Below, in pieces: positions 36,265 to 57,745 of a DNA stretch of 64,000 bases (position 1 is the stretch's first letter; each line of letters begins with the position of its first letter). The stretch spans positions 66,122-130,121 of the forward strand of contig CAIOVX010000011.1 in assembly GCA_903861835.1 (NCBI GenBank). Direction: 5' to 3'. The translations under genes and the position numbers were made by a program. The notes beneath the pieces were generated by a model that ran no database searches, had not been told where the DNA came from, and saw nothing but the letters and a program-made list of their open reading frames with translations. The stretch is from Candidatus Firestoneibacteriota bacterium. Lineage in GTDB: Bacteria > Oederibacteriota > D2-FULL-39-29 > CAIOVX01.

Positions 36265-36713
36265 CCCACGAAGATTTCATGCTTGAAGCTCTAAAAGAAG
36301 CCCGGAAAGGCAACGCGAAAGGTGAAGTCCCGGTAGGCGCTGTCATTGTGCTTCAAGGAAAAATAATTGCCAGGGCGCACAGCCTTGTCCGCAGTAAGAA
36401 AGACCCCACGGCTCACGCCGAGATACTCGCGATCAGGAAGGCAGCCGTTAAAAATAAATACGAAAGGCTTAACGGCGCTGATATGTATGTAACACTTGAA
36501 CCTTGCGCCATGTGCGCAGGGGCCATGGTGCTCTCGAGGATAGAACGGCTGTATTTCGGCGCAAGCGAACCGAATACAGGAGCTGCCGGAAGCGTTTTTA
36601 ATGTAGTCTCAGATCCGCATCACAATCACAGAATAAAAACCTTCAAGGCTGTGCTTGAGTCTGAAAGCAGCGAGCTGCTTAGAGGCTTCTTCAAAGATAA
36701 GAGGAAGAAATGA
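36261..36713 (+). CDS. tadA: tRNA-specific adenosine deaminase
   Basis: CDA-fold zinc motifs HAEILAIRKA and PCAMCAGAM. Length is 150 aa. Confidence 0.9.
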   Translation: MTHEDFMLEALKEARKGNAKGEVPVGAVIVLQGKIIARAHSLVRSKKDPTAHAEILAIRKAAVKNKYERLNGADMYVTLEPCAMCAGAMVLSRIERLYFGASEPNTGAAGSVFNVVSDPHHNHRIKTFKAVLESESSELLRGFFKDKRKK

Positions 36714-39070
36714 GAACCAAAACCGCGGCATACACCGGAGCGGGGTTGCTCATAGCGGCTCTTTCATTCTATCTGCTTACCGTCTGTCCGGTAGTCTATG
36801 TGGGTGATACCGGCGAACTGGTTTCGGCGGCCTATACTCTGGGTATACCGCATCCTCCGGGCTATCCTCTATTCTGTCTTTCCGGCAAAGCCCTGACCTG
36901 CCTGCCTGCCGGGAGTATTGCTTTCAGAGTGAACCTGCTTGCCGCTTTAATGGCAGCGCTCGCTGTCTTGATGTTCTTCCTGCTTTCAAAAAGAGTTTTT
37001 AAAGTTGAGGGAAACTTTAAGGTACTCCTTCTGTTGCTCCTTAGCTTTGTTGCAGCCTCTTCAAGAGTATTCTGGAACCAGTCCGGCATGGCAAAAGGCG
37101 CCCTCTATACTATGACTGCATTTTTGCTCCTATCCTCGGTCTTTGCTTTGGAAGCGTGGAGAAAAAACGGCAGGAATAAGCACTTTATTGTTGCCGCTTT
37201 TCTGGCAGGTCTTTCTGTTGTAAGCCATCAGACGGCGCTGGTCTTTCTTCCGGCCTTTGCAATTTACACGGTTTTTATCTCCATTGAAAAGAAAACTCAC
37301 TATACGGTTTTTATTTTGGGAGCGGCTGCGTTCTCGGCCGGCCTTTCCGTATTCTTTTACCTTATGCTAAGCGCGGCCGGCTACCCTGCCGTAAACTGCG
37401 GCAATCCTTCAACTATTCAGGGAATGCTGCAGCATGTTCTGCGCTCGCAATACGGCGGGCTTACGAAATACCCCAGATCCTTCGAACTCTTTGCTCAAGA
37501 ATTGAGAGCCTGTTTTATAATCTTTACGGCGCAGTTCCCTGTTTGGGTCCTATTTCTGCCGTTCTTAGGTATTCTAGTTTCATGGAGAAAGCAGCTGCCC
37601 CTGCGCTTACTTTCCGCGATTATTATAACAGCCCTCGTTTTCGGACTAATGCTCGGCACTGTCTATGATATTACGGCGGCGATGCTGGAGACTACTGCGG
37701 TTTTTATGCTCCCGGCTTATTTCTTCCTGTGGCTCTGGGCATATCCGGGAGCCGAAAAACTGCTTGGAGACAAGAAACCGGTCTATCTGAAGCTTCTTCT
37801 CTTGCTGCTTGCAATTTCTGCCGTGTTTTACAATGTCTGCGTAAACGGCTCCTATAATGATAAGAGCTCCAATCTCATGGCCGAGAGATATGCGGTTGAC
37901 ACGCTCAGGTCATGTCCCCGTGATTCGGTTATCTTTATGTCGGAAGACAGTCCTATGTATCAGTTGCTTTACGCGAAGACGGTGAACGGAGCTAGACCGG
38001 ATGTTAAGATAGTCGATGAGACAGCAACGGCTTTCAGGACGGTCCTTAGAGAAAGCGACAGAGGTGTTGTTTTTAAGGGTGAAGTATTAAGGCGGGCCTC
38101 GGAATATATGCAGAGCGCGCTTAAGAACGGAATACCTGTACTTTGCACCTCGGAAAGCTCCTTCCTTAACACAAGCAAGTCGGAGCGAACTCCTTCAGGG
38201 CTGCTGTATTTGATGAAAGGCCCTAATATGCGTTCCGGACCCGTAACGGATTTTTGGGAGAACTGCGAGATCCCGGAACCTTCGCCAAAAAGCGATGTCT
38301 TTAACAAAGACATGTACGCCCGGTATCATTTCATGAAGGCGGAAAGCCTCTTTGAGCGCGGAAATAAAAAAAGTTTTATTGAGGAAATGAAAAAAGCGGA
38401 AAGTCTCTCTCGGGATATGGACTGGGTCCGTTCAGAGATGGCTATCATTTACGGAAACAGAGGATTTAAGGCAGAGAGCCTCTCAGCCTATGAGTCAGCC
38501 GCGGCTCTTTTTAGGAATTCTGCCGAAAGAAGGAATAACCTCGCTAATGCCTACCTTGCCGCCGGGCGGATAGCCGAAGCCACAAAGGAATTTGAAGCCG
38601 CCTGCGCTCTGGATAAGAACCTCGCAGCGCCTCGTCATAATCTCGGCAATGCCTATCTCGCGGCCGGAAAGAGAGAAGAGGCGCGAGCTGTTTACGAAGA
38701 AGCCGCGCGGCTTGGTCAGAAGGAAAGCCTTGACGCTCTGAATAACCTTGCCGGCGATCTTGAGAAAAAAGGAATGAATGAGCAGGCCTTTCAGGAATAC
38801 ATTCATATACTTGCAATAGACAAAGGATATGTTTTTGCCTGGATTAACGCGGGAAATATATTTTACAGCCAGAACAAGCTTGATGACGCCATCCGCTTCT
38901 ATTCAAACGCGGCGGCAGTCAGGCCTGATTACCCTGAAGGCTATTTCAATCTTGGAGTTGCGTACTACAAGAAAGGAGACCTTGCCTCGGCTAAGCAGTA
39001 TTGGCAAAAGACATTGCAGATAGCTCCGGCGCACGCAGGAGCGCTTAATGCGGTTAAATTGGTAAAGTAG
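36710..39070 (+). CDS. DUF2723 (TMEM260-like) GT-C-fold membrane protein fused to C-terminal TPR repeats (paralog 1)
   Basis: N-terminal polytopic domain (about 11 TM helices) with the conserved YVGDTGE...HPPGYPLF loop motif. The C-terminal ~300 aa is made of TPR units. Its start overlaps the tadA stop. Confidence 0.6.
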   Translation: MRTKTAAYTGAGLLIAALSFYLLTVCPVVYVGDTGELVSAAYTLGIPHPPGYPLFCLSGKALTCLPAGSIAFRVNLLAALMAALAVLMFFLLSKRVFKVEGNFKVLLLLLLSFVAASSRVFWNQSGMAKGALYTMTAFLLLSSVFALEAWRKNGRNKHFIVAAFLAGLSVVSHQTALVFLPAFAIYTVFISIEKKTHYTVFILGAAAFSAGLSVFFYLMLSAAGYPAVNCGNPSTIQGMLQHVLRSQYGGLTKYPRSFELFAQELRACFIIFTAQFPVWVLFLPFLGILVSWRKQLPLRLLSAIIITALVFGLMLGTVYDITAAMLETTAVFMLPAYFFLWLWAYPGAEKLLGDKKPVYLKLLLLLLAISAVFYNVCVNGSYNDKSSNLMAERYAVDTLRSCPRDSVIFMSEDSPMYQLLYAKTVNGARPDVKIVDETATAFRTVLRESDRGVVFKGEVLRRASEYMQSALKNGIPVLCTSESSFLNTSKSERTPSGLLYLMKGPNMRSGPVTDFWENCEIPEPSPKSDVFNKDMYARYHFMKAESLFERGNKKSFIEEMKKAESLSRDMDWVRSEMAIIYGNRGFKAESLSAYESAAALFRNSAERRNNLANAYLAAGRIAEATKEFEAACALDKNLAAPRHNLGNAYLAAGKREEARAVYEEAARLGQKESLDALNNLAGDLEKKGMNEQAFQEYIHILAIDKGYVFAWINAGNIFYSQNKLDDAIRFYSNAAAVRPDYPEGYFNLGVAYYKKGDLASAKQYWQKTLQIAPAHAGALNAVKLVK

Positions 39071-39234: not shown

Positions 39235-41607
39235 CTACTTTAAAGAACGGAGGGCGGATCGTATATATTCATTCCCAGGATTCTCTTTTAGAAGCCCTTC
39301 AAGGAATTCAACGCCGGACTTTGTATCGTTGAGCTGCCTGATAACCATAAGTAGATTAGAGACAGCATCCTTGTAGTTTGGGTCAAGCCTGACCGCGGTT
39401 TTATAGGCAGAGGATGCGTCTTGAAACCGTCCGAGACTGTAAAGCGAAGCCCCGACCGCGTTCCAGCCGTAAGCAAAATTCGGGTTTAAGGCCACAGTTT
39501 TCGCGTAAAAGTCGAGAGCCCGCTTGAAATCACCTGTCCCGAAAAAAGTATTTCCCAGCGCGTAGTAAGCATCGGTGTATGTGGGATTTAATTCAACGCA
39601 TTTGGTGAAACAGTTCTCGGCTTCCTTAATATTCTTTTTTGCCAGGTGAGTCACTCCGAGATTGAAGTAGGACTTGAAGTATTTGCCGTCAAGCTCTATC
39701 GCTTTTTGGTATTCCGCGATGGATTCGTCAAGTTTGCCTGCTCCGTAGTACGCGGTCCCAAGATTATTGTACAGGTCGGCCGAGACAGCCCCGCCCTTAA
39801 TGACATTCTCGTAGAAGGGGATTGCTTTGTCGGGCGATATTCGCGCGACGGCCTGCCCGATAGAGTTCTGGATCATGGGACTGTCGTAGGAAGTGTCCAT
39901 TGCTTTCAGGTATTCCTGCATTGCGTCTTTTGAACGCCCCTGCGCGGCGAACTGGTCTCCGTTCGTCATATAATACTGCCCGATGAGCTCGCGGCAGAAA
40001 TAGTCCATATAGATGCTTTTGTCTCCCAGGCCCTTGAGGGAGTAATTGAAGTGTTTCCCGGAAGTTCCTCCCCCGACCCTTTTGAGAATGCCCTCATAGT
40101 GCAGCCTCAGGTCATCCATATTGTCGATATTGCTTCCTGGGTAGCAATAGATGACGCGCCCGGAGGTATTTACTATCTGCCGCTGTACCTCGTTGAGCCT
40201 TTTTTGGTAAATACCGGTAGCCATTCTGAGGAAATCCTCGCCGTAAATATTCTTGAAGACTCTTCCGTAATCATCAAAAATCTCAAGATCCTCTCTGGCC
40301 TTCTCTACCATATGAAGATACGCAGGGATAAATGTGGGGTTATCTCCCGAGAGAAAGAGTACTGCGCCTTTTTCCGGAGTCTTAAGGATATTAATTCCGA
40401 AATCATAGGCAATGGTGTTGCGGCTCCTGTCAATGAGACGGTAATTTTGGGCCAGCGGAAGCAGCATGCAGATGGCCGCAGCTGCGGTTATTAAAATGCC
40501 AATATTTCCGCCGCGCGCAAGGTCAAGAAAGAAGAGGATTCCGAAGAAAAGCCAGGCCGCGCACACCAGATAGGAGGGTATGAAGAATACTTCGTTAACA
40601 TACAGATCCATCGCGCTCCATTTAAAGTTGCTCATGAGGATTAGGCCGAGGCTGGTGAGAAGGAAAGTTATTAAAAGGATGAGGAAGATTCCTCTGCCCG
40701 CTTTTTTGTAACAATACCACGCGCCCGGGATAATAAGCCAGATTGTGAATGCGGAAAACTGAGTGGTCATGAATTTAAGATAAGTCCAGAGCTGCCCAAG
40801 GAATACAGAGAAGCTTCTTGCTTCAAACCCCAAGGCATATTGTTTCCTGAGAACATGATTGAGAAAGTTGTAAAAACTAGCGGGGTGCCCCCAATCAATA
40901 GGAGGGTTTGCGGCTGACCTGAGAGGCAAATACATGTAGATTAAGAGAGCAAAAGCAAGCGCGAGAGTGCCGCAGTAGAGACCCTGTGTTGTGATGCTAA
41001 ACGCTCTTTGTACACGGTCCTTTATTCCTGAGGTGACGAGGTATAGAGCGTAAAGGATTACGAAGGGAATAAGGGGCACAATTGTATTGTGATTTGCAAG
41101 TCCAAAGCCGGAAATCACCGCCAGTAATGTCAGGTTTTTTAGCCGGTATATTCCGGTATCTTTCTTTATTTTTAGAAGCATCAGTAACAGTAAGGCGGTG
41201 ATGAAGGCATTAAGCCCGTATAGCCCGCCTTTGGTCATTAGGGCCTGGGACCAGAACGTTCTTGAAAAAGCAAAAGCAAGGGATGCGAATGCCGCCGCCA
41301 AAGAAAGAGTAAGGCTGCCGGCGAAGGACGAGAGGAAAAGATACAGTGTTGACACAGCCAGTGCCGAGAAGACCGCAGCCGTAAGATTAACCCTTAAAGC
41401 AATTGTGCCTGCAGGAATAAATGACATTATTTTGCCTGACATGCAATAGAGCGGGTATCCCGGCGGATGAGCTATGCCCAGAGTGTAGGCCGCGGCTATC
41501 ATTTCTCCTGAATCTCCGACATAGACAGTAGGGCATACGGTTAGAAGGTAGGCTATGAACGCAGTCATAAAGACAAGAGACGGTATGGACTGCTTTAGTT
41601 TGGTCAT
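39235..41607 (-). CDS. DUF2723 (TMEM260-like) GT-C-fold membrane protein fused to TPR repeats (paralog 2)
   Basis: Same architecture and N-terminal motif (YVGDSGEMIAAAYTLGIAHPPGYPLY), with C-terminal TPR units. Confidence 0.6.
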   Translation of the reverse strand: MTKLKQSIPSLVFMTAFIAYLLTVCPTVYVGDSGEMIAAAYTLGIAHPPGYPLYCMSGKIMSFIPAGTIALRVNLTAAVFSALAVSTLYLFLSSFAGSLTLSLAAAFASLAFAFSRTFWSQALMTKGGLYGLNAFITALLLLMLLKIKKDTGIYRLKNLTLLAVISGFGLANHNTIVPLIPFVILYALYLVTSGIKDRVQRAFSITTQGLYCGTLALAFALLIYMYLPLRSAANPPIDWGHPASFYNFLNHVLRKQYALGFEARSFSVFLGQLWTYLKFMTTQFSAFTIWLIIPGAWYCYKKAGRGIFLILLITFLLTSLGLILMSNFKWSAMDLYVNEVFFIPSYLVCAAWLFFGILFFLDLARGGNIGILITAAAAICMLLPLAQNYRLIDRSRNTIAYDFGINILKTPEKGAVLFLSGDNPTFIPAYLHMVEKAREDLEIFDDYGRVFKNIYGEDFLRMATGIYQKRLNEVQRQIVNTSGRVIYCYPGSNIDNMDDLRLHYEGILKRVGGGTSGKHFNYSLKGLGDKSIYMDYFCRELIGQYYMTNGDQFAAQGRSKDAMQEYLKAMDTSYDSPMIQNSIGQAVARISPDKAIPFYENVIKGGAVSADLYNNLGTAYYGAGKLDESIAEYQKAIELDGKYFKSYFNLGVTHLAKKNIKEAENCFTKCVELNPTYTDAYYALGNTFFGTGDFKRALDFYAKTVALNPNFAYGWNAVGASLYSLGRFQDASSAYKTAVRLDPNYKDAVSNLLMVIRQLNDTKSGVEFLEGLLKENPGNEYIRSALRSLK

Positions 41608-41661: not shown

Positions 41662-41689
41662 TTGCATTAGCCAAAAAATTTGCTATAAT
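41662..41689 (+). promoter_or_regulatory. Candidate promoter for ssrA
   Basis: TTGCAT, a 16-nt spacer, then TATAAT, about 110 nt upstream of the mature tmRNA 5' end. Confidence 0.35.
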
Positions 41690-41798
41690 GCACCTGTAGT
41701 TTCTCCGTTCCTTGAGATTCCTGGAGCAATTTGTTTTTATTGTCTGTTTTTGAATTTAATTAGTAATTAGCAATTAGTAATCAGCAATTGTTTCAACT

Positions 41799-42143
41799 GG
41801 GGGTGTACGGATTCGACGGGGGTATTGAACTGCGTGACGCATGCAGAGGTGCTGTCAACCTCTTTAAACAGGCGGCAAAAAACAATCGCTAACAACAACT
41901 TAGCGCTGGCTGCTTAAGTAGCCACGTTCTGCGGGCCTTGCCTGCGTGGTTTGCAGAACGCCATATTAGCAGGCTAGGGCCGGCTTTGTACTCAGGGAAG
42001 AAGGCCCGAAACAAAACCTGAGTTTGCCGTTGCGGACCCTGTCTTTGGGGGACGCGGCGTCGAGACTAAAACAAAGAACAAGCATGTAGTGTCAGGCACG
42101 GATGTACTTTCGGACGCGGGTTCAATTCCCGCCACCTCCACCA
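41799..42143 (+). ncRNA. ssrA: tmRNA (SsrA), one-piece, tag ending ...ANNNLALAA*
   Basis: The 5' GGGGGTGTACGGATTCGACGGGG and the 3' tRNA-like end GGACGCGGGTTCAATTCCCGCCACCTCCACCA form an acceptor stem with a G3-U wobble, a T-arm GCGGG/TTCAATT/CCCGC and a terminal CCA. The internal ORF GCT AAC AAC AAC TTA GCG CTG GCT GCT TAA encodes ANNNLALAA. Confidence 0.85.
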
Positions 42144-42510
42144 TTAAATACGATTACTAATTGCTGATTGCTAATTGCTAATTAAAATCAAAAACTCCCG
42201 GGATTTGAAGGATTGTTACGGTAGTGTCAGGCACGGATGTACTTTCGGACCGGGTTCGACTATAGTACTTGCGAGCGATGAGCAGCGAAGCCGCGAGTCG
42301 GGTGCGAGCAAGTGTTCCCGCCACCTCCACCATTAAATACGATTACTAATTGCTGATTGCTAATTGCTAATTAAAATCAAAAACTCCCGGGATTTGAAGG
42401 ATTGTTACGGTAGTGTCAGGCACGGATGTACTTTCGGACCGGGTTCGACTATGGTACTTGCGAGCGACGAGCAGCGAAACCGCGAGTCGGTGCGAGCAAG
42501 TGTTCCGGTA
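42144..42510 (+). repeat. Two tandem ~189-nt units, each carrying a partial copy of the tmRNA 3' end with a ~57-nt insertion in the T-loop. The units are flanked by heptamer microrepeats.
   Basis: Unit 1 is 42144-42332 and unit 2 is 42333-~42510. They are about 97% identical to each other. Each contains GTAGTGTCAGGCACGGATGTACTTTCGGAC, identical to tmRNA nt 42086-42116, then CGGGTTC, a 57-nt insert, then TCCCGCCACCTCCACCA (unit 2 is truncated before this). TAATTGC-type 7-mer tandem repeats lie before the tmRNA and between units. AATAACT 7-mers follow unit 2. Confidence 0.8.
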
Positions 42511-42585
42511 TAAAGGCAATAACTAATAACTGATAACTAATAACTAATAGCTAATAAAGGTCAAAAACTTTGGGTTGGTGAGTTT

Positions 42586-44175
42586 TTATGGTTGCTTAAC
42601 GGGTGGTGTCGGAAAAATTACTTCCGACAATTGGTTTGAGTTGAAGAAGAATAGTCTGCCTTCCTTGAAGATTAAAGCGCCGTATTTCTGGCGTCTCTGC
42701 GACTGCAGGTCAAGTTTTGCTTTGGCTACTAGCCCGCCTTTGTTCAGCGCGAAAACAGCTGATTCAAGGGCGTCGTAAACATAGAAATTGCCCTCCGTGC
42801 CTGCTGCCACTGAAACCGGCCATTTGCTCTCGAAACTGAAAGACATCAGGGCTTTTCCGGAAGGATCCAGCATAATAAAACTTTTGTTGAGCGTATTTAT
42901 CACGCCTATATTTAAGACTGCATCTACTGCGAGCGGTCCGGGATTGAAATATTCTCCGGGTTTTATCTCCTGCAAGGTTTTTCCTGCCGTATCAAGTTTC
43001 CTTATCAGGTTTCTGCCGGTCTCCGATACATAGACAGCGTCGTCAGGACCGACTGCCAACTGCAGCGGCCAGTCAAATCCCTTAAAATCTGAAAGGAATT
43101 TACCGCCGGCATCGAAGCTCTCTATTCTTCCGTTAAAGGAGTCTGAGACATAGATATTCCCTTTTGCGTCAAGGCCGATTCCTTTAGCCCCGCAAAAAAG
43201 GCCGGGCCCTGTGCCGTGCCCGCCGAAAGCCGCTGAGATGCCATCTTTCGAAACTTTCATGTAAAAGTCTCCGCTGAAGTCGGTGCAATACACCTCACCG
43301 TCTTTTCCCGCGGCCGCAGCGAAAATCTTATATGCCCAAAGGTCTCTGTGTCCTTCTGTTTTAAACGTTATTTCTTTGCCTGCGGAATTTAGCTCAACGG
43401 TTCCTTTTTCATCGTCATTTACCGCTATATCGCCCTGCTTGTTGATGGCAATAAGAGTAGGACGGTTATAGTAGAACCTGTTTTTATAGTAATTCTTGAA
43501 TTTGCCGTCAGCAGCATAAATCTTTACCGACCTATCAAGAAAGTCGCAGATATAAATGCTTCCGTCGGGATGCAGAGCCGCGTCGGAAACGGAGAGAAGT
43601 TTTTCAGAGAACTTGACGAGGAAGGCGCCGTCTTTGCTGTATCGTTTTACACAAATATTGCCCGGGTCGGTAACAAAAATTGAGTTGTTGCTGCCCTTGA
43701 AGATATGAAACGGATTGAGAAAATCCGAGTCTCCGTATCCTCGTTTTCCGAACTTGAAGAGGAAGGAACCTTCCTTATCAAAAACTTTTATGCAATTGTT
43801 CCCTGTATCGGATACCACTATGCGGCCGGCTTCATCGCAAAAGACCCCGAGAGGTCTGAGCAGGGAGGAGTCCGAGTTGCCTTTACCGCCGAAAGAGCTT
43901 ACAAGCTGGCCTTTATCGTCCAATATCTTGATTGTCGAATTGCCGCTGTCGGCGACGAGAAGATTTCCGCCCGGAAGGATGTCTAGCCCGAACGGCCGGA
44001 ATAAGTCCTCGGCTACGGTATTAACTTTTCCGTCAGCCCGTATTTCTATTTGATCACGTGTCAGCAGGCATATTTCGTTTTTACCGGTCAGATACATGGA
44101 ATTATAATGCGCCAACGCAGGAAAAGAAATCAGCGCCAGTATGAAGGCAACAAACTTATTCATTTCTGACCGCAC
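42586..44175 (-). CDS. Secreted NHL-repeat beta-propeller protein
   Basis: Signal peptide (ALISFPALA). Multiple NHL-like ~40-aa repeats (..G.FC/D..G.IYV.D..N.RI..FD..G.F...FG..G). Confidence 0.65.
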   Translation of the reverse strand: MRSEMNKFVAFILALISFPALAHYNSMYLTGKNEICLLTRDQIEIRADGKVNTVAEDLFRPFGLDILPGGNLLVADSGNSTIKILDDKGQLVSSFGGKGNSDSSLLRPLGVFCDEAGRIVVSDTGNNCIKVFDKEGSFLFKFGKRGYGDSDFLNPFHIFKGSNNSIFVTDPGNICVKRYSKDGAFLVKFSEKLLSVSDAALHPDGSIYICDFLDRSVKIYAADGKFKNYYKNRFYYNRPTLIAINKQGDIAVNDDEKGTVELNSAGKEITFKTEGHRDLWAYKIFAAAAGKDGEVYCTDFSGDFYMKVSKDGISAAFGGHGTGPGLFCGAKGIGLDAKGNIYVSDSFNGRIESFDAGGKFLSDFKGFDWPLQLAVGPDDAVYVSETGRNLIRKLDTAGKTLQEIKPGEYFNPGPLAVDAVLNIGVINTLNKSFIMLDPSGKALMSFSFESKWPVSVAAGTEGNFYVYDALESAVFALNKGGLVAKAKLDLQSQRRQKYGALIFKEGRLFFFNSNQLSEVIFPTPPVKQP

Positions 44176-45520
44176 CCCAGTTTGATTTGAAATTTATGAG
44201 TTTGTTCTTGCCGTCCCTAACCGTTATCTCAATAATATCCTCAGGCTTAAGGTCGCTGCCGGAGAGCTTTGCTTTCAGAAACTGCCCTCCTGTCTCGGCC
44301 TGAGGCGGAAGCGGGTATTTGAGCCCGTTTATGAGCAGTTCAAGTTCTGTTCTAATGCTCGTTCTTCTGTCGGTAAGGAAGGCATTAATATTAATATTTA
44401 AAGCGGCGTCTTTGCGCACATTAAGAGCGCATTCTTTTGTGGCTTTGATGAATCCCCCGGTTGAGTTTAAAGGATACCAGTACTCGCTCCAGGAAACTGA
44501 TTTTCCGGGCTGCATTACGGTATAATCGTCCTGGGATTCGGTCAAGCCCGCGAAGAGTTCATAATAGATCTTCGGGTTAGAGGAATACATTTTGACAGGT
44601 GGATTGTTTCTCTGAAAACACCAGAGTTTAGAACCTTTTGCCGTTTCATGCGGGAAAACGCGTACAATACCTTCGTGCTTTCCCCGGTCGTAACTTCCGA
44701 GAAAATCTTCCTGCTGTTTTAATTGGAATAAACCCTGTTGATCATCCCAATTTGAGAAAAAGCTGTAGTCGACTCCGTCATAAATAGGCCAGCCAATAAC
44801 CTGGCGCATTGGCCAGCCGTACATATCCCCGTGCATAACCATCCTGTCTGCAGGGAAAGTAAATTCAACCTCATCGGTTTGTTCCATGCTGCAGCAGAGC
44901 CAGTAATAAAATCTTCTGGAATAGGGAGTGGGATTCTCAATTGTTATCTTGAATTCAACATAGGAAGCTTCCTCGCGGATAATGTTCTCGACTGTGAGTT
45001 TTAAATCAGTCTCGAGGTCCGTCATCCAGGTGATAAAAGAAACGCTGCCGTCCTGGTTTTTGCGGGTATAGTAATCCCACGGAATTGTGTCAGAAGGCGA
45101 GTGCGCGTAGGAAGGGAAGCCGTGTTTGAAGCCGCCGAGAACGGTAATGTAGCCTGCTCCCCGTGAATAGAGTGTGGCAGGTTTTGTGGAAGCGGTATCA
45201 TACAGAACCTCCTTCCCGGAGAGTTTGTCGAAGAGCTTGTAAAGCCTGCCGCCGTGGGAGGGAAGAAATGTCGCCTTTATGCGCTCGTTTTCTATTGCTA
45301 CAGTTTTAAAATCCTTTTTCGCTGAGATACCTACCGGGAAAGTTTCATCAGGCAGGTCAATCCTCGGATAAGGATAGCATTGCTCCCAGGGCCCTGAAGG
45401 ATATAAGAAGTTTTCAAATTTGTAGGTTGTGATAGAGGTCTTGTCTTCGGAAATGGTTACATCCGCGAAAACAGAGAGGTATAGTATAGATACAAGCGCC
45501 GCAAGCAAGAACCTTCTCAT
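44156..45520 (-). CDS. Secreted hypothetical protein, possibly with a galactose-mutarotase-like fold
   Basis: Signal peptide. The weak pattern KATFLPSHGGRLYKLFDKLSGKEVLY resembles aldose-epimerase-like beta-sandwich folds. Its start codon overlaps the stop of the upstream DUF2723-TPR gene, so they are co-operonic. Confidence 0.4.
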   Translation of the reverse strand: MRRFLLAALVSILYLSVFADVTISEDKTSITTYKFENFLYPSGPWEQCYPYPRIDLPDETFPVGISAKKDFKTVAIENERIKATFLPSHGGRLYKLFDKLSGKEVLYDTASTKPATLYSRGAGYITVLGGFKHGFPSYAHSPSDTIPWDYYTRKNQDGSVSFITWMTDLETDLKLTVENIIREEASYVEFKITIENPTPYSRRFYYWLCCSMEQTDEVEFTFPADRMVMHGDMYGWPMRQVIGWPIYDGVDYSFFSNWDDQQGLFQLKQQEDFLGSYDRGKHEGIVRVFPHETAKGSKLWCFQRNNPPVKMYSSNPKIYYELFAGLTESQDDYTVMQPGKSVSWSEYWYPLNSTGGFIKATKECALNVRKDAALNININAFLTDRRTSIRTELELLINGLKYPLPPQAETGGQFLKAKLSGSDLKPEDIIEITVRDGKNKLINFKSNWGAVRNE

Positions 45521-48093
45521 TAATTTCCTTTTCGTACCTTTTCTATATTAAGCCGGGCGTTAGTGTAACTTGGTGACACCTTTAGGGCTTTTTCCCAGGC
45601 GGCAATAGCCTTTACATTATCGCCAAGTATACCATAAGAGATGCCCAGATTGTTCCAGTCATCTGCGCTATTGGGGCGCAGCTTGGCTATATTAAGATAG
45701 CATTCCGGAGCTTTGTCGGCGTGCCCTGACTCTGTATAGGATATCGCGAGGCTTGTCCAGGCCTGAACCATTGCAGGATTTATGTTGAGTGCCTTAAGGT
45801 ATGCATTAATAGCGTTTTGATAATCCTTCTGTCCATAATAAACAAATCCCATTCCATAGTAGCTCTCTGCAATGTTAGGGTTCACGGTAAGAGACCTGTT
45901 GAAGGCGCTTAGAGCTTCTGAGGGCTTCTTCAGCTGCGCTAAGGCCACGCCGAGGTTTGTGAGCATCTCGGCGGAGCCGGGTTCAAGTTTTAGTCCGAGC
46001 TCGTAATTTATGACGGCGTTTTCAGGATCACTCTTATCAAGATATACATTGCCTATCATAAAATACATTTTAGAACTGTAGGGATTTACTGATAGAGCCT
46101 GCCGGTAGGCGTGGAGCGCTCCTTCAGGGACATTTGCTTGCCGGTATACGGCGCCCAGGTTGTAAAGATAGGCGTCCTTCCCTGAAATTGATATGGCTTT
46201 TGTGTAATACTCTATCGCTTTCTGAAAAAGGCCCTTCTTGTAGTTTATAATGCCAAGGTTGTTGTAGCCGTCGGCGAATCTGGGATTTATCTGAACCGCT
46301 TTTTGCGCGTATTTTTCGGCGTCCTCAAGCATGCCCTTGTTTATATAAGAGATGGCGATATCGTTCTGTATCATATCCATATCAAAGCCTGCTTCAAGCG
46401 CTTGTTTGTAAAGCCCTTCCGCTTCTTCATTGCCGCCTGTCTCAAAGGCGGCCTCGGCGAGGTTAAAATAAAAGAGCGCTATAACTTCCCGGGAAAGAAA
46501 ATCTTTGTAAAATGAAGGGTCTGAGTAAGACTCAATGTGATAGCGGTTCCGGTCGAAAATGCCGGGCTTGCGCCTGCCGTCTTTCATAATCTCGAAGATC
46601 ATACCGTAGGACCTGACTGTAAGGTTGGGCAGAGAGTGTACAGAGGTGCCGGATACGCAATAAATATGACCCTTGAAAGAGTTTATCGTATTCCATTCCA
46701 CTTCATTTATCCGCTTCGTATAGGTGCCAAAGTCGGTCTGGCCGCGAATTTCCTCGCCGTAAATATTTTCAAATACATTGCCGGTCTCATCATATACCGT
46801 GAGATCAGGTCTGAGTTTTTCTACCTTTTTCAAATAGCAGGTAATAAATGTGGAGTTGTCGCCGGCTACAAACAGGAGGGAATTTTTCTCCGGAGTCCTT
46901 AAGACATTCTTACCGTACACGAGAGCGCAATCATTTCTGCTTTTGTCGGCCCGGTAGTAGTTTGAAGCCAGCGGGAAAAGCGCGCAGACGGCTGAGACTA
47001 ACAGGAGGTATACGCCGGCTCGCGGGTACATTTCCTTCAGAAAGAAGAATCCTGCAACTCCAAAGATGCAAATCATAAGAAATGAGGGGATAAGGAAAGG
47101 ATCTACAATGTATAAGTCGTGGCTGTTAAGGAGATAATTGGAGAAGTATATAATTCCGGCGCTGGTCATCAGGAATATGGCGGTCGACAGAAAAAAAAGT
47201 TTCTTGTTCTTTTTGAAAAAGTAAAGCGCGCCTAAGGGCGCTAGCAGGGCTGTCAAACTGTTCTGTTTATAGAGCGCCTTAAAGTAACCGAAGGTTTGGT
47301 CTAGCATGTGCGCAAGAGTCCGGTCGTTGGGATCGGGAAGTTTGTACTGCTGTCTGGTAACGTGTCTCCAGAAGTTATCGAAAGTCGAAGGGTTGCCCCA
47401 GTTGATAGCCGGTCCGGCAGAGGCCCGTAAGGGCAGGTAAAGATAAATAAGCGCGGCCGTTAAGATTGAGAAAAACATAAAGCTCAAAGAGTATTTTATG
47501 GCCCGGCTTAAGCCGTGTTTATAAGAGTTGAGGAAAACAAAGAGTACAAAGACCGCTGTGAGCGGAACCATGGTGTTATGGTTCGCAAGACCTAAACCGA
47601 AGAACACGCCCGCCTGCAGAATATCCTTGTCGTTTTTAGAGAAACCAATTTTATAAATTATTAGGATGAGCAGCAGCGCGTTAAGTTCGTACAGGCCGCC
47701 CTTGGCCATAAGAGCCTGGTTCCAGAAAGTGAAGGAGAATACCGCCGAGAAAACCCCGGCAAGCGCCATTAGGTTGTCTGAAAAGGACCTGACTTTGACG
47801 CTCTTCTTCAAAAGAACAAAGAGGAAGAGCGAGGCTAATGCGGCGAGTGTTCCGGATAGTAAGTTAACTCTTGACGCGATATTTGAGACAGGAATATATG
47901 TGAACAGTTTACCAAGTATTGTAAAGAGTGGGTACCCCGGCGGATGCGGGATGCCGAGGTAATATGAGGCAGTTATCATTTCGCCTGAGTCGCCTACATA
48001 GATTGTGCAGCAGTAGGTGAGAAGGTAGATGATAAAAGGCAGCAAGAACGCAGCAAGCGTGAAATAGCTTGAGTATTTCGAGCGCGTTTCCAT
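45520..48093 (-). CDS. DUF2723 (TMEM260-like) GT-C-fold membrane protein fused to TPR repeats (paralog 3, 857 aa)
   Basis: N-terminal motif YVGDSGEMITASYYLGIPHPPGYPLF, about 11 TM helices, and a C-terminal array of about 9 TPR units. First gene of a three-gene minus-strand operon. Confidence 0.6.
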   Translation of the reverse strand: METRSKYSSYFTLAAFLLPFIIYLLTYCCTIYVGDSGEMITASYYLGIPHPPGYPLFTILGKLFTYIPVSNIASRVNLLSGTLAALASLFLFVLLKKSVKVRSFSDNLMALAGVFSAVFSFTFWNQALMAKGGLYELNALLLILIIYKIGFSKNDKDILQAGVFFGLGLANHNTMVPLTAVFVLFVFLNSYKHGLSRAIKYSLSFMFFSILTAALIYLYLPLRASAGPAINWGNPSTFDNFWRHVTRQQYKLPDPNDRTLAHMLDQTFGYFKALYKQNSLTALLAPLGALYFFKKNKKLFFLSTAIFLMTSAGIIYFSNYLLNSHDLYIVDPFLIPSFLMICIFGVAGFFFLKEMYPRAGVYLLLVSAVCALFPLASNYYRADKSRNDCALVYGKNVLRTPEKNSLLFVAGDNSTFITCYLKKVEKLRPDLTVYDETGNVFENIYGEEIRGQTDFGTYTKRINEVEWNTINSFKGHIYCVSGTSVHSLPNLTVRSYGMIFEIMKDGRRKPGIFDRNRYHIESYSDPSFYKDFLSREVIALFYFNLAEAAFETGGNEEAEGLYKQALEAGFDMDMIQNDIAISYINKGMLEDAEKYAQKAVQINPRFADGYNNLGIINYKKGLFQKAIEYYTKAISISGKDAYLYNLGAVYRQANVPEGALHAYRQALSVNPYSSKMYFMIGNVYLDKSDPENAVINYELGLKLEPGSAEMLTNLGVALAQLKKPSEALSAFNRSLTVNPNIAESYYGMGFVYYGQKDYQNAINAYLKALNINPAMVQAWTSLAISYTESGHADKAPECYLNIAKLRPNSADDWNNLGISYGILGDNVKAIAAWEKALKVSPSYTNARLNIEKVRKGN

Positions 48094-48661: not shown

Positions 48662-48925
48662 TGGTTGGAAGGTTAGAGGCTCAGAGGTGTAGATGCGCAG
48701 TAAGTCGGAGGTAAGAAGATCGGATGCGTAAAATCGGTAGACGGTGGACAGAGGACCGAAGGCGGAGGACGGAAGGCAGAAGACAGAAGACAGAAGACAG
48801 AGGACAGAGGACAGTAGACGGGAGGCAGAGGACTGCTGGATGTTTGGATGATTGGAAGGTTGGATGCTCAAAGGCTTTCAGGGTTTGATGCGGGCTGAGG
48901 GTCGAGCTAAAGCGGAGGCTGGATA
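48662..48925. repeat. Purine-strand (GA-rich) tract with tandem heptamers GAAGACA/GAGGACA
   Basis: About 250 nt with almost no pyrimidines on the plus strand. Heptamers are GAAGACA x3, GAGGACA x2 and related GGAGGAC/GGAAGGC units. Overlapping minus-strand ORFs give low-complexity Ser/Leu/Cys translations. Confidence 0.7.
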
Positions 48926-55130: not shown

Positions 55131-55302
55131 AATAAAAAGTTTGTAACGTTTGTAATGTTCTTAACGTTCTTAACGTTCATAACGTAAAGCAATAAATACG
55201 AGTATTGCGGAGCAAATAGGCGTATTTTGAAATATGCGAATTACGTTATAAACCTTACAAACGTTATGAACGTTAGAAACGAATTAGTGTTTTGGAGTTC
55301 TC

Positions 55303-56505
55303 GTGAACTTAATTGAAAGCCTTAAACTTGCCATATCCAGCCTAAAAATGAACAAGATGAGGACCTTCCTCACCCTGCTTGGTATTGTTATCGGCGTTAT
55401 GGCAATAATACTCCTTGTCTCGGTAATCACCGGTTCAAGATCGAAGATTGAAGATGAAATGCAGGCCATGGGTACGAACATGCTAACGGTAATACCCGGA
55501 AACAGCGAGGCGCAGATGGGGCCGCCAGGAACCTATACAACGAACCGCCTAAAGATGCGTCATGTGGACCTAATAAACAACAAGAGCGCTTTCGGCGCCG
55601 ATGCCTGCCCCGAATACGACATTATGGGAGTGAACGTAAAGTACAAGAACGAGAGCCGGAATGTAAGTTTTGTTTCCGGGATGGGGAGCAATTTTGAGAA
55701 GGTATTCACCTGGAAGATTGATAAAGGGGCTTTCTTTAGAGAGGAAGACGTTAAGGCGGCAAGAAAAGTCGCTATAATAGGAGTGACTGTTGTTAAGAAT
55801 ATCTTCAAAGGAGTTAACCCCACAGGTAAATATATTTCAGTCAGGGGAATAAAGTTTAGGGTAATAGGCGTAATGGAAGAGAAGGGGAGTTTCTTCGGCA
55901 TGGACATGGACGACGCTATCTATATGCCTATCACGACAGCGCAAAATCTTGGAGGCTCGGATGATGTCCACCAGATAACGGTACGCATCCCTGACCCGAA
56001 ACAGATTGACTTCGCCAAGGCTGACACCAAAAGACTGCTTTTAACAATGCTTGACAAAAACGACTTTTCCGTCATGACCCAGGGTGAATCCCTGGACATG
56101 CTTAAAGACATTATGTCCGTAATGGAACTTATTACCTATGTTATCGCGATGATTTCACTGCTGGTCGGGGGCATTGGTATAATGAATATCATGCTTGTCA
56201 CCGTGACAGAACGGACCAGAGAGATAGGCATAAGAAAGGCGGTAGGGGCGTCGGCCGGGAATATTCTCGCGCAGTTTATCGTGGAAGCTGTAATAGTGTC
56301 AGTAACCGGAGGGCTAATCGGAATATTAATTTCCATAACTATTCTGGCTATACTCACTCCTATGATACCTTTCCCGGTTAAAGCTTCGGGAGTTTCAATT
56401 ATTGTTTCATTTGTATTCTCCTCTTTGATAGGAATATTTTTCGGGACCTATCCCGCGGTCAAGGCCTCAAAAATAGATCCGATTGCGGCGATGAGATACG
56501 AGTAG
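55303..56505 (+). CDS. ABC transporter permease, FtsX/MacB-type (paralog 2)
   Basis: Same architecture. GGIGIMNIMLVTVTERTREIGIRKAVGA. About 45% identical to paralog 1 by eye. Confidence 0.75.
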   Translation: MNLIESLKLAISSLKMNKMRTFLTLLGIVIGVMAIILLVSVITGSRSKIEDEMQAMGTNMLTVIPGNSEAQMGPPGTYTTNRLKMRHVDLINNKSAFGADACPEYDIMGVNVKYKNESRNVSFVSGMGSNFEKVFTWKIDKGAFFREEDVKAARKVAIIGVTVVKNIFKGVNPTGKYISVRGIKFRVIGVMEEKGSFFGMDMDDAIYMPITTAQNLGGSDDVHQITVRIPDPKQIDFAKADTKRLLLTMLDKNDFSVMTQGESLDMLKDIMSVMELITYVIAMISLLVGGIGIMNIMLVTVTERTREIGIRKAVGASAGNILAQFIVEAVIVSVTGGLIGILISITILAILTPMIPFPVKASGVSIIVSFVFSSLIGIFFGTYPAVKASKIDPIAAMRYE

Positions 56506-56549
56506 TTAACAAAAAGTTTGTAAGGTTTGTAAGGTTAATAAGGTTCATA

Positions 56550-57380
56550 ATGTCAAGAGAGTTAAAGCCCATTTTTAAGTGCCGGGCCGGTAAAATTGCA
56601 GCAGGGAGGGGTCAATACATGGCAGAAGAAGAAAAAGTGACAAAGAAAACATCCGTTGCTTTTGGAATTCTAAAATGGGGCGGGATAACAGCCGGAGTGC
56701 TTGTACTCGCGGCGGCAGTTTTTATTCTGCCAATGGCAAGGACTATGATGAGCTTCCGGCCCGCGCCGACAGGCGCCGTGACTCCGGAGTTCTTCGCGGT
56801 AAACAACAAGTTCGTAGATTTCTTCGTCTTCAAGTCAGGCGATGAGTTGTTTTGTTTTGACGCGGGTAACAGCGTCGCGCAAGTCCTGGAAGGATTCAAG
56901 GAACTCGGGCTGGAGCCCTCTAAAGTAAAGGCGGTTTTTCTGACTCATTCCGACGGCGATCACGTAAACGGGCTTCCCGCATTTGTAAACGCGGCAGTTT
57001 ACCTTCCTGCGGCGGAGGAACCGCTGGTGACGGGGACAAAGAAAAGGCATTTTATGTTTATGGAAAGAATAAATACCCTGCCGGTTTTAAAGTACACGCT
57101 TATCAAGGACGGGGAAAGAGTGAAAATAGGGAAAGGCGTATGCGAGGCGATCCTCACGCCCGGACATACGATAGGTTCAACCTCATTTCTTGTTAACGGG
57201 AAATATCTGATAGTCGGAGACCTTGCGATAATAAAAAACGGCAAACTTGTTGCGATGCCCAAGCCTCCTTCGGAAGCTCCGGCTGTCATAGCAGAATCGT
57301 TAAAGAAAGTGGAAGCATTCAAGGGTGTTGAATATGTGGCAACGGCGCATGCCGGAGTTTTGAAATTGCAAAAGAATTAG
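56550..57380 (+). CDS. Membrane-anchored MBL-fold metallo-hydrolase
   Basis: N-terminal TM helix, then the beta-lactamase-fold motif THSDGDHVNG (HxHxDH) with downstream His/Asp ligands. The true start may be the ATG at 56619 (MAEEEK). Confidence 0.65.
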   Translation: MSRELKPIFKCRAGKIAAGRGQYMAEEEKVTKKTSVAFGILKWGGITAGVLVLAAAVFILPMARTMMSFRPAPTGAVTPEFFAVNNKFVDFFVFKSGDELFCFDAGNSVAQVLEGFKELGLEPSKVKAVFLTHSDGDHVNGLPAFVNAAVYLPAAEEPLVTGTKKRHFMFMERINTLPVLKYTLIKDGERVKIGKGVCEAILTPGHTIGSTSFLVNGKYLIVGDLAIIKNGKLVAMPKPPSEAPAVIAESLKKVEAFKGVEYVATAHAGVLKLQKN

Positions 57381-57404: not shown

Positions 57405-57745
57405 AAATTCGAAATTCGAAGTACGAAATTCGAAACAAAACAGGATTAAGCACCAAATCACAAGCACCAGGCACCAGAAGTTCAAGCACCAAATCTCAAG
57501 CATCAAGCACCAAAGGTTCAAGCACCAAATCTCAAGCACCAAGCACCAAATAAACACCAAAACGCAAAAACATAAGAAAACAAAGAACCTAGTATTTCTA
57601 TTTTTCGTTTTTCTGTCTTTTTGTCTTTATTTGGGATTTGGTGCTTGTGATTTGTAATTTAGTCTTAAGTGATTTGGTGCTTGTGATTTGTGATTTAGTC
57701 TTAGGTGATTTGGAGCTTGAGATTTGCGGTTTGAAGCAATTACTA
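57405..57745. repeat. About 340-bp imperfect palindrome built from short tandem repeats (CAAGCACCAAATC units and their reverse complements)
   Basis: The left arm, 57448-57550, carries five or more copies of AAGCACCAAATC(T/A)CAAGCACC. The right arm, 57634-57730, carries the reverse complement GATTTGGTGCTTGTGATTTG x3. The centre, 57550-57634, is A-rich then T-rich and self-complementary. GAAATTC x3 lies at the left edge. Confidence 0.8.

What the first reader, a model, noticed from the sequence alone, without database searches (positions are those of the whole stretch)
41750..42585. Intact tmRNA followed by two tandem ~189-nt pseudo-copies of its 3' end, all embedded in heptamer microrepeats
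Each downstream unit reproduces about 31 nt of the tmRNA immediately preceding the T-arm, plus the split T-arm and acceptor 3' strand (including CCA in unit 1). A ~57-nt insertion sits in the T-loop. The two units are nearly identical to each other (a few SNPs: tatagt/tatggt, gatgag/gacgag, aagcc/aaacc). A cryptic alternative stem (CCCGG...CCGGG) brackets the tmRNA-derived part. 7-nt tandem repeats (TAATTAG/CAATTAG upstream; ATTGCTA between units; AATAACT after the last unit) flank every unit. Duplicated tmRNA 3' ends are the classic footprint (attL/attR) of integrase-mediated insertion of genomic islands or phage at ssrA. Here the copies are tandem with no cargo between them. That points to serial integration and excision scars, an amplified att site, or a structured repeat RNA derived from the tmRNA end. 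None of these is described for this arrangement.
Basis: seen in the sequence. Interest (0 to 1): 0.7.

Follow-up and report, generated by a model that had tools for sequence, protein, structure and literature searches.

The report
Recombining repeats of tmRNA gene tail
Downstream of an intact tmRNA gene in a Candidatus Firestonebacteria genome lies a real array, variable in copy number, of 189-nt units built from the gene's own 3' end, its trailer and one conserved hairpin; it is best read as an old insertion scar amplified by local duplication and recombination, not as a second tmRNA or an active phage attachment site.

Summary
An intact tmRNA lies at 41799-42143 (Rfam 200 bits). It is followed by one complete 189-nt unit (42221-42409) and one truncated unit (42410-42506). 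Each unit carries a 55-nt insert, mostly a 50-nt hairpin I, in the T-loop.

New findings:
- The organism is Candidatus Firestonebacteria.
- A near-identical strain (L001) lacks exactly one 189-nt unit. Related species carry 0 or 1 unit, and some carry a second module type, E1.
- Hairpin I followed by a tmRNA fragment starting in the T-loop (TTCC...) also occurs in a distant relative (L018). I is as conserved as the tmRNA and shows compensatory changes.
- The heptamers are the arms of a roughly 70-bp leader/trailer duplex that encloses the tmRNA gene.

Best reading, in three layers:
1. An old island-type insertion in the ssrA T-loop left a cargo-less relic.
2. A tandem duplication created the trailer-to-tmRNA junction, which no T-loop crossover can make.
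3. Homologous recombination between the repeats changes copy number.

No integrase, cargo, or phage or plasmid match was found. No second or permuted tmRNA was found. I rate it a new variant of a known kind, of moderate interest.

The parts
41662..41690 (+). Putative ssrA promoter (TTGCAT, 16 nt, TATAAT)
   Evidence: Read from the sequence. Conserved in L002 and L003. The consensus scan did not call it, so this is an inference.
41703..41798 (+). Leader; 5' arm of the leader/trailer duplex (TAATTAG/CAATTAG heptamers at 41757-41789)
   Evidence: 58-nt inverted repeat with the trailer, whose core is 26 nt at 96% complementarity. Duplex energy -48 kcal/mol against -11 +/- 3 for shuffles. In the full fold the whole leader pairs with the whole of F1.
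41799..42143 (+). Intact tmRNA gene (ssrA), tag ANNNLALAA
   Evidence: ARAGORN; Rfam RF00023, 200 bits, full length.
42144..42220 (+). Trailer F1, copy a; 3' arm of the duplex (ATTGCTA heptamers at 42153-42183)
   Evidence: Its 3' end coincides with the end of complementarity to the leader.
42221..42260 (+). Unit 1: copy of the 30 nt that precede the tmRNA T-arm, plus the T-arm 5' half (CGGGTTCGAC)
   Evidence: 100% identical 30-mer. The C after TTCGA matches palindrome g of the related species, not the tmRNA T-loop.
42261..42314 (+). Unit 1: TATA plus hairpin I (42265-42314), lying in the T-loop position
42315..42332 (+). Unit 1: T3, comprising the last two T-loop bases, the T-stem 3' strand, the acceptor 3' strand and CCA
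   Evidence: Exact second copy of TTCCCGCCACCTCCACCA.
42333..42409 (+). Unit 1: trailer F1, copy b (100% identical to copy a)
42410..42506 (+). Unit 2 (truncated): 30-mer, T-arm 5' half, TATG, hairpin I (42454-42502), then TTCC
   Evidence: This unit is identical to the single unit of strain L001.
42507..42585 (+). F2: diverged paralogue of the trailer (AATAACT heptamers at 42518-42557) preceded by a decayed T3
   Evidence: 75% identity to F1 in register. Leader/F2 duplex -29.6 kcal/mol against -14.5 +/- 3.3 for shuffles. F2 is the only trailer arm in form A species, where it pairs with the leader.
42607..42629 (+). Terminator-like hairpin on the + strand, inside the 3' end of the convergent NHL-repeat gene; a possible end of the ssrA transcript
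   Evidence: Conserved with G-U variants in L012 and L009. Assigning it as the terminator is an inference.

Best explanation
**Model: a three-layer history, with only the first gene copy working as tmRNA.**

1. **Old insertion (inferred by analogy).** In an ancestor of this Firestonebacteria clade, an integrating element entered the ssrA T-loop. As such elements do, it supplied a new tmRNA 3' end (T3) and displaced the original T3 and its trailer. The element has decayed to a cargo-less relic, E1 (about 160-225 nt). E1 consists of T3, a hairpin that pairs with the CCA end, an 18-nt palindrome made of the T-arm 5' half (g), an AT-rich spacer, and hairpin I lying directly against the displaced T3.
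2. **Tandem duplication (inferred from junctions).** The segment from 30 nt before the T-arm to the end of the trailer was duplicated in tandem. A deletion between the T-arm half and palindrome g then produced the unit seen here: 30-mer, T-arm half, hairpin I, T3, trailer.
3. **Ongoing recombination (polymorphism shown, mechanism inferred).** RecA-type recombination or slippage between the long perfect repeats (I, T3 plus trailer, and the 30-mer) adds and removes modules. This gives 0, 1 or 2 units in different genomes.

The parts that stay conserved are the trailer arm and hairpin I. I infer that they are kept because they belong to the tmRNA precursor. The leader and trailer form a roughly 70-bp duplex around the gene, which looks like an RNase III-type processing stem. 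Hairpin I sits at the foot of that stem in the ancestral arrangement, possibly as a processing or 3'-exonuclease barrier element.
For: **Copy number varies between genomes**
- L001 equals the window minus exactly 189 nt, plus 1 SNP.
- Form A has no unit (L003, L010, L012). Form B has E1 plus one unit (L009 and L017, independent samples). Form C is L001 and form D is the window.
- Forms A, C and D all derive from B by recombination between direct repeats.
- All forms share the same decayed junction, I-TTCCGGT.

**The unit is built from local sequence**
- F1 and F2 are paralogues through GGATTGTTACGG.
- The F1-to-30-mer junction is head-to-tail.
- The unit's T-arm half carries the C of palindrome g.

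**The deep layer is old**
- L018/L019 (flanking protein 46% identical) have tmRNA, a CCA hairpin, palindrome g, I, and then TTCCCGCCA.
- The layout matches the published definition of island ends (PMC4383910). It also matches the Dehalococcoides ssrA islands, which have a 20-bp repeat starting mid T-loop and a conserved motif just upstream (PMC3146451).

**No mobility machinery was found**
- Flanking genes are syntenic housekeeping genes and there is no integrase.
- There is no match in viral contigs, phages or plasmids.
- In the metagenome scan, I was found in Firestonebacteria only next to ssrA.

**The conserved parts look like RNA elements**
- I is as conserved as the tmRNA: 88.5% against 91.9% (window vs L012) and 81% against 79% (window vs L018). 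Coding flanks are 60-75% identical.
- Three stem pairs change on both sides between L018 and the rest. The unit-1 SNP gives a G-U pair.
- Leader/F1 duplex is -48 kcal/mol, and leader/F2 is about -30 kcal/mol in both the window and L012.
- The CCA-pairing hairpin is kept with unrelated sequences in four lineages.
Against: - The old 'island' is inferred only from its scar. No related element with an integrase was found.
- In L018 the two trailer hairpins look somewhat alike (UUUUUUA...UAAAAAA). That could mean even the first event was a local duplication.
- The 4 differences between the two units all fall in the 54 nt of TATA plus I (p about 0.007 if spread evenly). Simple recent duplication does not predict this. 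It needs gene conversion of the other parts, or hairpin-prone mutation.
- Covariation in I rests on one divergent lineage and 7 distinct sequences.
- There is no transcript evidence. The promoter, the terminator and RNase III cleavage are all inferred.
- A strain of the same species (L016) has unrelated DNA next to this locus. This leaves open that integration is still active here.
Confidence: 0.52

Rival explanations
1. The 159-203-nt modules are cargo-less, non-autonomous integrative mini-elements. Their attP is 'hairpin I + T3'. An integrase encoded elsewhere inserts them one after another into the ssrA T-loop. Each insertion replaces the tmRNA 3' end and trailer, with the newest module nearest the gene.
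For: - Every module starts with the 18-nt T3 block, which begins in the T-loop, and ends with the conserved hairpin I.
- The observed orders (tm-E1, tm-E2, tm-E1-E2, tm-E2-E2) are all what serial insertion at the intact gene would give.
- The architecture parallels the Dehalococcoides ssrA islands. Those include 'cis-mobilizable' islands without their own integrase (PMC3146451).
- I is more conserved than the flanking genes.
- L016 shows strain-variable DNA beside the locus.
Against: - The join between trailer F1 and the 30-mer inside E2 cannot be made by a T-loop crossover. The contents of E2 are copies of the host leader complement and of the tmRNA itself.
- No integrase lies within about 15 kb.
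- No copy of I or of the unit was found in viral contigs, phages or plasmids. In the metagenome scan, no Firestonebacteria copy lay away from ssrA.
- Excising the last module would destroy the tmRNA, because the displaced T3 has decayed.
- Repeats of 130 nt or more are enough for ordinary homologous recombination.
Confidence: 0.2
2. The units are themselves selected functional RNAs. Examples would be stable processed fragments, decoys for tmRNA-binding or processing factors, or alternative 3' ends and trailer arms for the precursor. Their number is tuned by selection.
For: - Hairpin I is conserved and has compensatory changes and a G-U-preserving SNP on the + strand.
- Each complete unit brings a second perfect trailer arm that can pair with the leader at -48 kcal/mol.
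- The 30-mer and the tail of F1 form the CCCGG/CCGGG-closed hairpin, which mimics tmRNA helix 2.
Against: - Folding energies of the units are no better than shuffled sequence (z = +0.76 and -0.58).
- The units lack the 5' acceptor strand, so they cannot form a tRNA-like domain.
- The unit is absent in some species, and a near-identical strain has one unit fewer.
- No promoter-like site lies in the array.
- There is no significant Rfam match.
Confidence: 0.12
3. The second unit is an assembly artefact: a mis-threaded repeat, or a chimera of co-occurring strains.
For: - Closely related Firestonebacteria co-occur in the same samples.
- Contigs very often break in or next to this tmRNA.
Against: - Unit 1 has its own SNPs and a junction (I-T3) that does not exist in the one-unit form.
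- The same junction is assembled independently in another species from two samples (L009, L017).
- The exact repeat length (about 135 nt) is below k=141.
Confidence: 0.04

Closest known systems
Tandem ssrA-specific genomic islands of Dehalococcoides (PMC3146451), and tRNA/tmRNA-gene islands in general as defined in Islander (PMC4383910)
   Same: [quoted passage not shown]
- A conserved element-end motif lies immediately upstream of each repeat.
- Several modules sit in tandem, and their number differs between strains.
- Some modules have no integrase of their own.
   Different: - There is no cargo here. Modules are 159-224 nt, against kilobases in the known islands.
- No integrase was found.
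- The repeated unit contains copies of the host's own leader complement and of tmRNA sequence 5' of the crossover.
- It also contains a head-to-tail duplication junction.
- Copy-number change is explained by homologous recombination.
tmRNA genes interrupted in the T-loop by group I introns (PMC11915505)
   Same: A clean insertion in the T-loop. The two halves would rebuild the T-arm exactly, with no loss or duplication.
   Different: - The insert is 55 nt with no intron core. The only Rfam Intron_gpI match scores 16.4 bits against a gathering score of 50, and it lies mostly outside the insert.
- The base before the insert is A, not U.
- The interrupted copies are pseudo-copies. The working gene is uninterrupted.
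Leader/trailer processing stems of rRNA operons (RNase III substrates; established knowledge)
   Same: Long-range complementarity between the leader and trailer of a stable RNA gene, about 70 bp, enclosing the mature RNA.
   Different: - It encloses a tmRNA.
- It is built from 7-nt tandem repeats.
- Cleavage is untested.
- I found no paper describing such a stem for tmRNA, but the search was shallow.
Circularly permuted (two-piece) tmRNA genes, thought to arise through tandem duplication of ssrA (PMC11915505 for the gene form; the origin model is from my own knowledge)
   Same: Tandem duplication involving the 3' (acceptor) part of ssrA.
   Different: - Only the last 60 nt or so are duplicated, and no 5' acceptor strand follows.
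- The Rfam tmRNA_permuted match is 25.5 bits against a gathering score of 47.
- The standard one-piece gene is intact.

Membership tests
Integrated genomic island or prophage at ssrA (attL/attR) | Displaced direct repeat of the tmRNA 3' end that starts at a canonical crossover sublocation (T-loop) | tested here: met
   TTCCCGCCACCTCCACCA occurs at 42126 and 42315. The same block follows I in L009/L017, and a decayed one follows I in L018.
Integrated genomic island or prophage at ssrA (attL/attR) | Integrase gene within the element, usually next to the tmRNA-proximal end | tested here: not met
   Only 132-141 nt lie between repeats. Neighbouring genes are DUF2723/TPR, NHL, DUF5107, ABC efflux and similar.
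Integrated genomic island or prophage at ssrA (attL/attR) | Foreign cargo between the repeats | tested here: not met
   The unit consists of T3, the complement of the leader, the tmRNA 30-mer, the T-arm half and I. All are locally derived. GC content is flat across the region.
Integrated genomic island or prophage at ssrA (attL/attR) | Matching attP in a phage, plasmid or free element | tested here: not met
   No match in IMG/VR, INPHARED phages or PLSDB plasmids. Phages of this candidate phylum may simply be unsampled.
Group I intron in the tmRNA T-loop | Catalytic core recognised by the intron covariance model; U at position -1 | tested here: not met
   16.4 bits against a gathering score of 50, at 42482-42677. 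The insert is 55 nt and is preceded by A.
Second, permuted or two-piece tmRNA | Score above the Rfam gathering threshold; both acceptor strands present | tested here: not met
   tmRNA_permuted 25.5 and 28.7 bits against 47. ARAGORN finds one tmRNA only. No GGGGGTG 5' strand follows the units.
Dispersed palindromic repeats (REP, RPE, MITE or PATE type) | Many copies scattered in the genome | tested here: not met
   The I core occurs only twice in the 64-kb window even with 3 mismatches allowed. In JGI metagenomes it occurs in Firestonebacteria only beside ssrA. Whole genomes were not scanned.
Integron cassette / attC | RYYYAAC ... GTTRRRY core sites, with IntI nearby | tested here: not met
   By inspection of 42255-42320 no such core sites are present. 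No integrase is nearby.
RNase III-type leader/trailer processing stem | Long duplex between the leader and trailer of a stable RNA | tested here: met
   (computed only).
RNase III-type leader/trailer processing stem | Cleavage within the duplex in vivo | not testable with these tools
   Needs RNA end mapping.
Hammerhead ribozyme (considered because of GAUGAG...GAAAC...GUC in I) | CUGANGA and GAA cores with three helices | tested here: not met
   C3 and U4 are replaced, stem II has at most 2 bp, and L018 changes A6. No Rfam match at E up to 10.

The most novel reading that the evidence does not exclude
The modules are a new kind of cargo-less, non-autonomous integrative mini-element. Each would be an 18-nt tmRNA 3' block plus a conserved hairpin serving as its attachment site. 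A T-loop-specific recombinase acting in trans would move them, and each move would re-tail the tmRNA gene.

Alternatively, or in addition, hairpin I and the heptamer-built leader/trailer duplex would define a previously undescribed way of making tmRNA in a candidate phylum.
Probability: 0.15. Interest if true: 0.75.

Novelty: new variant of a known kind. Interest (0 to 1): 0.38.

Why it matters
- ssrA is a classic landing site for mobile DNA, and its displaced 3' fragments are used to map islands automatically. This locus shows that such fragments can persist and multiply without any cargo, through local duplication and recombination. Island-finding software could misread them as tandem islands, and they can break metagenome assemblies.
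- The locus also points to two clade-specific features of tmRNA biogenesis that could be tested: a roughly 70-bp leader/trailer duplex built from 7-nt repeats, and a hairpin as conserved as the tmRNA itself.
- If the minority reading is right, these would be the smallest known integrative modules.

Tried and rejected
**Readings of insert I that were rejected**
- Hammerhead: the core does not fit and Rfam finds nothing.
- Group I intron remnant: 16 bits, with the wrong base before the insert.
- Integron attC: no core sites.
- Dispersed palindromic element (REP/PATE type): not dispersed.
- Small ORF across I (20-21 codons ending RASVPV): the start is missing in unit 1, and a 1-nt indel puts the frame out of register between species. 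So it is not coding.
- Promoter in front of I (TATAAT or TATAGT is conserved 0-6 nt upstream): no usable -35 element, the spacer is deleted in the window's units, and the scan finds nothing.

**Readings of the whole array that were rejected**
- Permuted or second tmRNA: below threshold.
- Unequal crossing-over between the 30-mers as the source of the second unit: it would give a unit without I, which is not what is seen.

**Searches that led nowhere**
- A search for the island seen in strain L016 through its 46-residue RhuM-like fragment found nothing, and Pfam gave no hit.
- Three of the look-ups gave no usable locus: L020 (contig too short), L021-L023 and L035 (no synteny). Three further look-ups returned records with no DNA held.
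- A 31-of-32-nt match to the I core in contigs L008 and L013 lies on an animal contig (rhodopsin-type receptor). I set it aside as unexplained.
Full report
**1. What is in the window**

ARAGORN and Rfam agree on one intact tmRNA at 41799-42143 on the + strand, with tag ANNNLALAA, 200 bits and a full-length match. I use these names for the pieces that follow:
- **a**: the 30 nt before the T-arm, GTAGTGTCAGGCACGGATGTACTTTCGGAC.
- **T5**: the T-arm 5' half plus most of the loop.
- **T3**: TTCCCGCCACCTCCACCA, that is the last two loop bases, the T-stem 3' strand, the acceptor 3' strand and CCA.
- **F1**: the 77-nt trailer.
- **I**: a 50-nt hairpin.
- **F2**: a diverged trailer.

The layout is:

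| Segment | Coordinates |
|---|---|
| tmRNA, ending in a-T5-T3 | to 42143 |
| F1 (copy a) | 42144-42220 |
| a | 42221-42250 |
| T5' | 42251-42260 |
| TATA | 42261-42264 |
| I | 42265-42314 |
| T3 | 42315-42332 |
| F1 (copy b) | 42333-42409 |
| a | 42410-42439 |
| T5' | 42440-42449 |
| TATG | 42450-42453 |
| I | 42454-42502 |
| TTCC | 42503-42506 |
| F2 | 42507-42585 |

Tandem Repeats Finder gives a period of 189, 2.0 copies and 97% matches.

The T-loop insert is 55 nt, not 57. No second, permuted or two-piece tmRNA is present. The best permuted-model match scores 25.5 bits against a gathering score of 47.

**2. The heptamers are the two arms of a long duplex around the gene**

- The upstream TAATTAG/CAATTAG array is the reverse complement of the downstream ATTGCTA array. 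The inverted repeat is 58 nt, with a core of 26 nt at 96%.
- In a fold of 41695-42225 the whole leader (41703-41798) pairs with the whole of F1, leaving one roughly 20-nt bulge. That is about 70 bp (z = -9 for the shorter fold).
- Duplex energy is -48 kcal/mol for leader with either F1 copy, against -11 +/- 3 for shuffles. It is -29.6 kcal/mol for leader with F2.
- F1 ends exactly where complementarity to the start of the leader ends.

**3. Organism and context**

The flanking DUF2723/TPR protein finds Candidatus Firestonebacteria genomes at 87%, 84%, 78% and 46% identity. The neighbours are syntenic housekeeping-type genes: three DUF2723/TPR paralogues, DUF5107, an NHL-repeat protein, a deaminase, a transporter, and MacB-type efflux genes. 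There is no integrase or transposase within about 15 kb, and GC content is flat.

**4. Related loci show the array is polymorphic**

| Form | Loci | Structure after the tmRNA |
|---|---|---|
| C | L001 (near-identical strain; flanking protein 100% identical) | the window minus exactly 189 nt, with one other SNP; keeps the unit-2 version of I |
| A | L003, L012, L010 (species at about 78%) | E1, then TTCCGGT-F2 |
| B | L009, L017 (two independent samples) | E1 followed by T3-F1-a-T5'-TATA-I, then F2 |
| D | the window | two units |

In form A, E1 runs as follows: tmRNA-CCA, a hairpin that pairs with the CCA end, the palindrome TCGAACCCGCGGGTTCGA (g), an AT-rich spacer, then I.

Written as modules that each start with T3 and end with I:
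- E1 = T3, hairpin, g, spacer, I (159-161 nt).
- E2 = T3, F1, a, T5', I (189 nt here, 203 nt in L009).

The forms are then tm-E1 (A), tm-E1-E2 (B), tm-E2 (C) and tm-E2-E2 (D).

A distant relative, L018/L019 (NHL protein 46% identical), has a 224-nt E1-like module. Its I is followed by TTCCCGCCA and a T-run. More distant lineages have no I and no T3 repeat (L005 and L032-L034). L032-L034 do have other heptamer arrays around their tmRNA.

**5. How the forms relate**

Forms A, C and D can each be derived from B by recombination between direct repeats:
- I x I deletion gives A.
- T3 x T3 deletion gives C.
- I x I unequal exchange followed by T3 x T3 deletion gives D.
- D gives C by loss of one unit.

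All forms share the same decayed junction, I-TTCCGGT.

Three observations show that E2 was built locally and not brought in:
- F1 is a paralogue of F2 over its whole length, through GGATTGTTACGG, and it is the complement of the host leader.
- The join of the end of F1 to 'a' is a head-to-tail duplication junction. A crossover in the T-loop cannot create it.
- T5' reads CGGGTTCGAC. The C is that of palindrome g (GGGTTCGACgacc), not the T of the tmRNA loop. So the right part of E2 descends from the g-spacer-I part of E1 by deletion.

Repeats of 130 nt or more at 100% identity are ample for ordinary homologous recombination.

**6. The deepest layer**

In every member of the clade, a T3 fragment that starts exactly in the T-loop lies just after I, downstream of an intact gene whose own T3 is followed by a different trailer. 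This is the published signature of an integrated element. The element restores the gene, and the displaced fragment marks its far end (PMC4383910).

The closest described case is Dehalococcoides. There, tandem ssrA islands are bounded by a 20-bp ssrA repeat that begins mid T-loop, and a conserved 15-bp motif lies just upstream of each repeat. Some of those islands lack an integrase (PMC3146451).

Here the 'island' is only 160-225 nt with no gene. I read it as a relic. That step is an inference by analogy. A purely local origin is not excluded, because the two trailer hairpins of L018 resemble each other and palindrome g looks like a fold-back copying product.

**7. Is anything conserved for a reason?**

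Percent nucleotide identity to the window:

| Comparison | I | tmRNA | Coding flanks |
|---|---|---|---|
| window vs L012 | 88.5% | 91.9% | 71-75% |
| window vs L018 | 81% | 79% | 60% |

- Between L018 and the others, two pairs of the middle stem change on both sides (A-U to G-C and C-G to U-A). So does one pair of the outer stem (UUGC/GCAA to CUGC/GCAG).
- The unit-1 SNP (C to T) keeps a G-U pair on the + strand.
- That is suggestive, but it rests on 7 distinct sequences and one divergent lineage.
- The hairpin that pairs with the CCA end is kept in four lineages with unrelated sequences: L012, L009/L010 (with an A-U to G-C change relative to L012), L018 and L032.
- In form A the predicted fold pairs the leader with F2, heptamer by heptamer, around tmRNA plus E1.

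Together these points suggest that the region from the leader to the trailer arm is one precursor RNA. I would then sit at the foot of the long stem. Cleavage, termination and any role of I are untested. The unit as a whole does not fold better than shuffled sequence.

**8. Tests of the attachment-site idea**

- The 30-mer, the I core and a relaxed I pattern have no match in IMG/VR.
- The whole array has no match in INPHARED phages or PLSDB plasmids.
- In the JGI metagenome scan the I core was found in Firestonebacteria only beside ssrA. Other hits were chance matches in coding DNA, plus one odd match on an animal contig.
- These are absences in collections that may not sample phages of this phylum.
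- One hint in the other direction: contig L016, from the same species, has unrelated DNA in place of the array side, starting at window position 42677, with Vsr-like and RhuM-like fragments recognised by eye. The contig ends there.

**9. Verdict**

It is best explained by an old insertion scar at the ssrA T-loop that was later duplicated in tandem. It now expands and contracts by homologous recombination. Its conserved pieces are probably retained because they are part of the tmRNA precursor.

I put about 0.5 on this composite model, 0.2 on trans-mobilised mini-elements, 0.12 on the units being functional RNAs in their own right, and 0.04 on an assembly artefact.

It is a new variant of a known kind of feature. 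Interest is moderate. The points worth following up are the leader/trailer duplex built from heptamers and the conserved hairpin I.

Noticed in passing
window 2897-2939, 7316-7349, 7404-7426, 55136-55281, 56513-56550: A family of 9-nt tandem arrays (ACGTTAAGA / ACGTTACAA / GTTTGTAAC) lies in several intergenic regions, often beside canonical terminators. The arrays occur in inverted pairs that bracket genes; for example, 55243-55274 and 56513-56544 bracket the MacB-type gene at 55303-56505. They may be the mRNA counterpart of the tmRNA leader/trailer arms, or a phylum-specific repeat class.
   Followed up: partly
window 57405-57735: A roughly 330-nt intergenic region made of 7-, 14- and 36-nt periodic repeats (AAGCACCAAATCTCAAGCACC...). 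Its two halves are reverse complements, so it is a very long imperfect hairpin, located between a metallo-beta-lactamase-fold gene and a heptosyltransferase gene.
   Followed up: no
window 48739-48866: A purine-rich GGACAGA array (about 12 copies) followed by TGGATGAT repeats, upstream of the hydrolase gene at 48929.
   Followed up: no
L016 4241-4578 (same species; corresponds to window positions left of 42677): In another assembly of the same species, the NHL gene is truncated and is followed by unrelated DNA instead of F2 and the array. That DNA contains a Vsr-like start and a RhuM-like 46-residue fragment, both recognised by eye with no Pfam hit. This may be a strain-specific island next to ssrA. 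The contig ends there.
   Followed up: partly
L008 4873-4904 and L013 3065-3096: A 31-of-32-nt match to the core of hairpin I (gtgcgagcgatgagcagcgaagccTcgagtcg) lies on contigs that encode a rhodopsin-family receptor, so they are presumably from an animal genome. The match is far too good for chance under uniform composition, and it is unexplained.
   Followed up: partly
L024-L031, L002 (species with 87% identical flanking protein): All 22 contigs read for this sister species end within about 100-340 nt upstream of the flanking gene. Many of them end 25 nt into the tmRNA. Contigs L009, L010 and L017 start at the 30-mer. The near-identical tmRNA shared by co-occurring species, together with the local repeats, acts as an assembly breaker. 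The array is therefore under-sampled in public assemblies.
   Followed up: yes
L032 1327-1950 (also L033): In a more distant Firestonebacteria lineage, the tmRNA is flanked by different heptamers: TTTAGAA upstream and two TCGATTC/TCGAGAT hairpin-forming arrays downstream. It is followed by a gene of the 23S-rRNA-intervening-sequence protein family (PF05635) on the same strand.
   Followed up: no
window 36710-39070, 39235-41607, 45520-48093: Three paralogous DUF2723 (TMEM260-like) glycosyltransferase-TPR genes surround the ssrA locus. The arrangement is conserved in relatives.
   Followed up: no
window 42261-42314 versus 42450-42502: All four differences between the two units fall in the 54 nt of TATA/TATG plus hairpin I, and none fall in the other 135 nt (p about 0.007 if spread evenly). 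Either the tmRNA-like parts are homogenised by gene conversion, or the hairpin is mutation-prone.
   Followed up: partly
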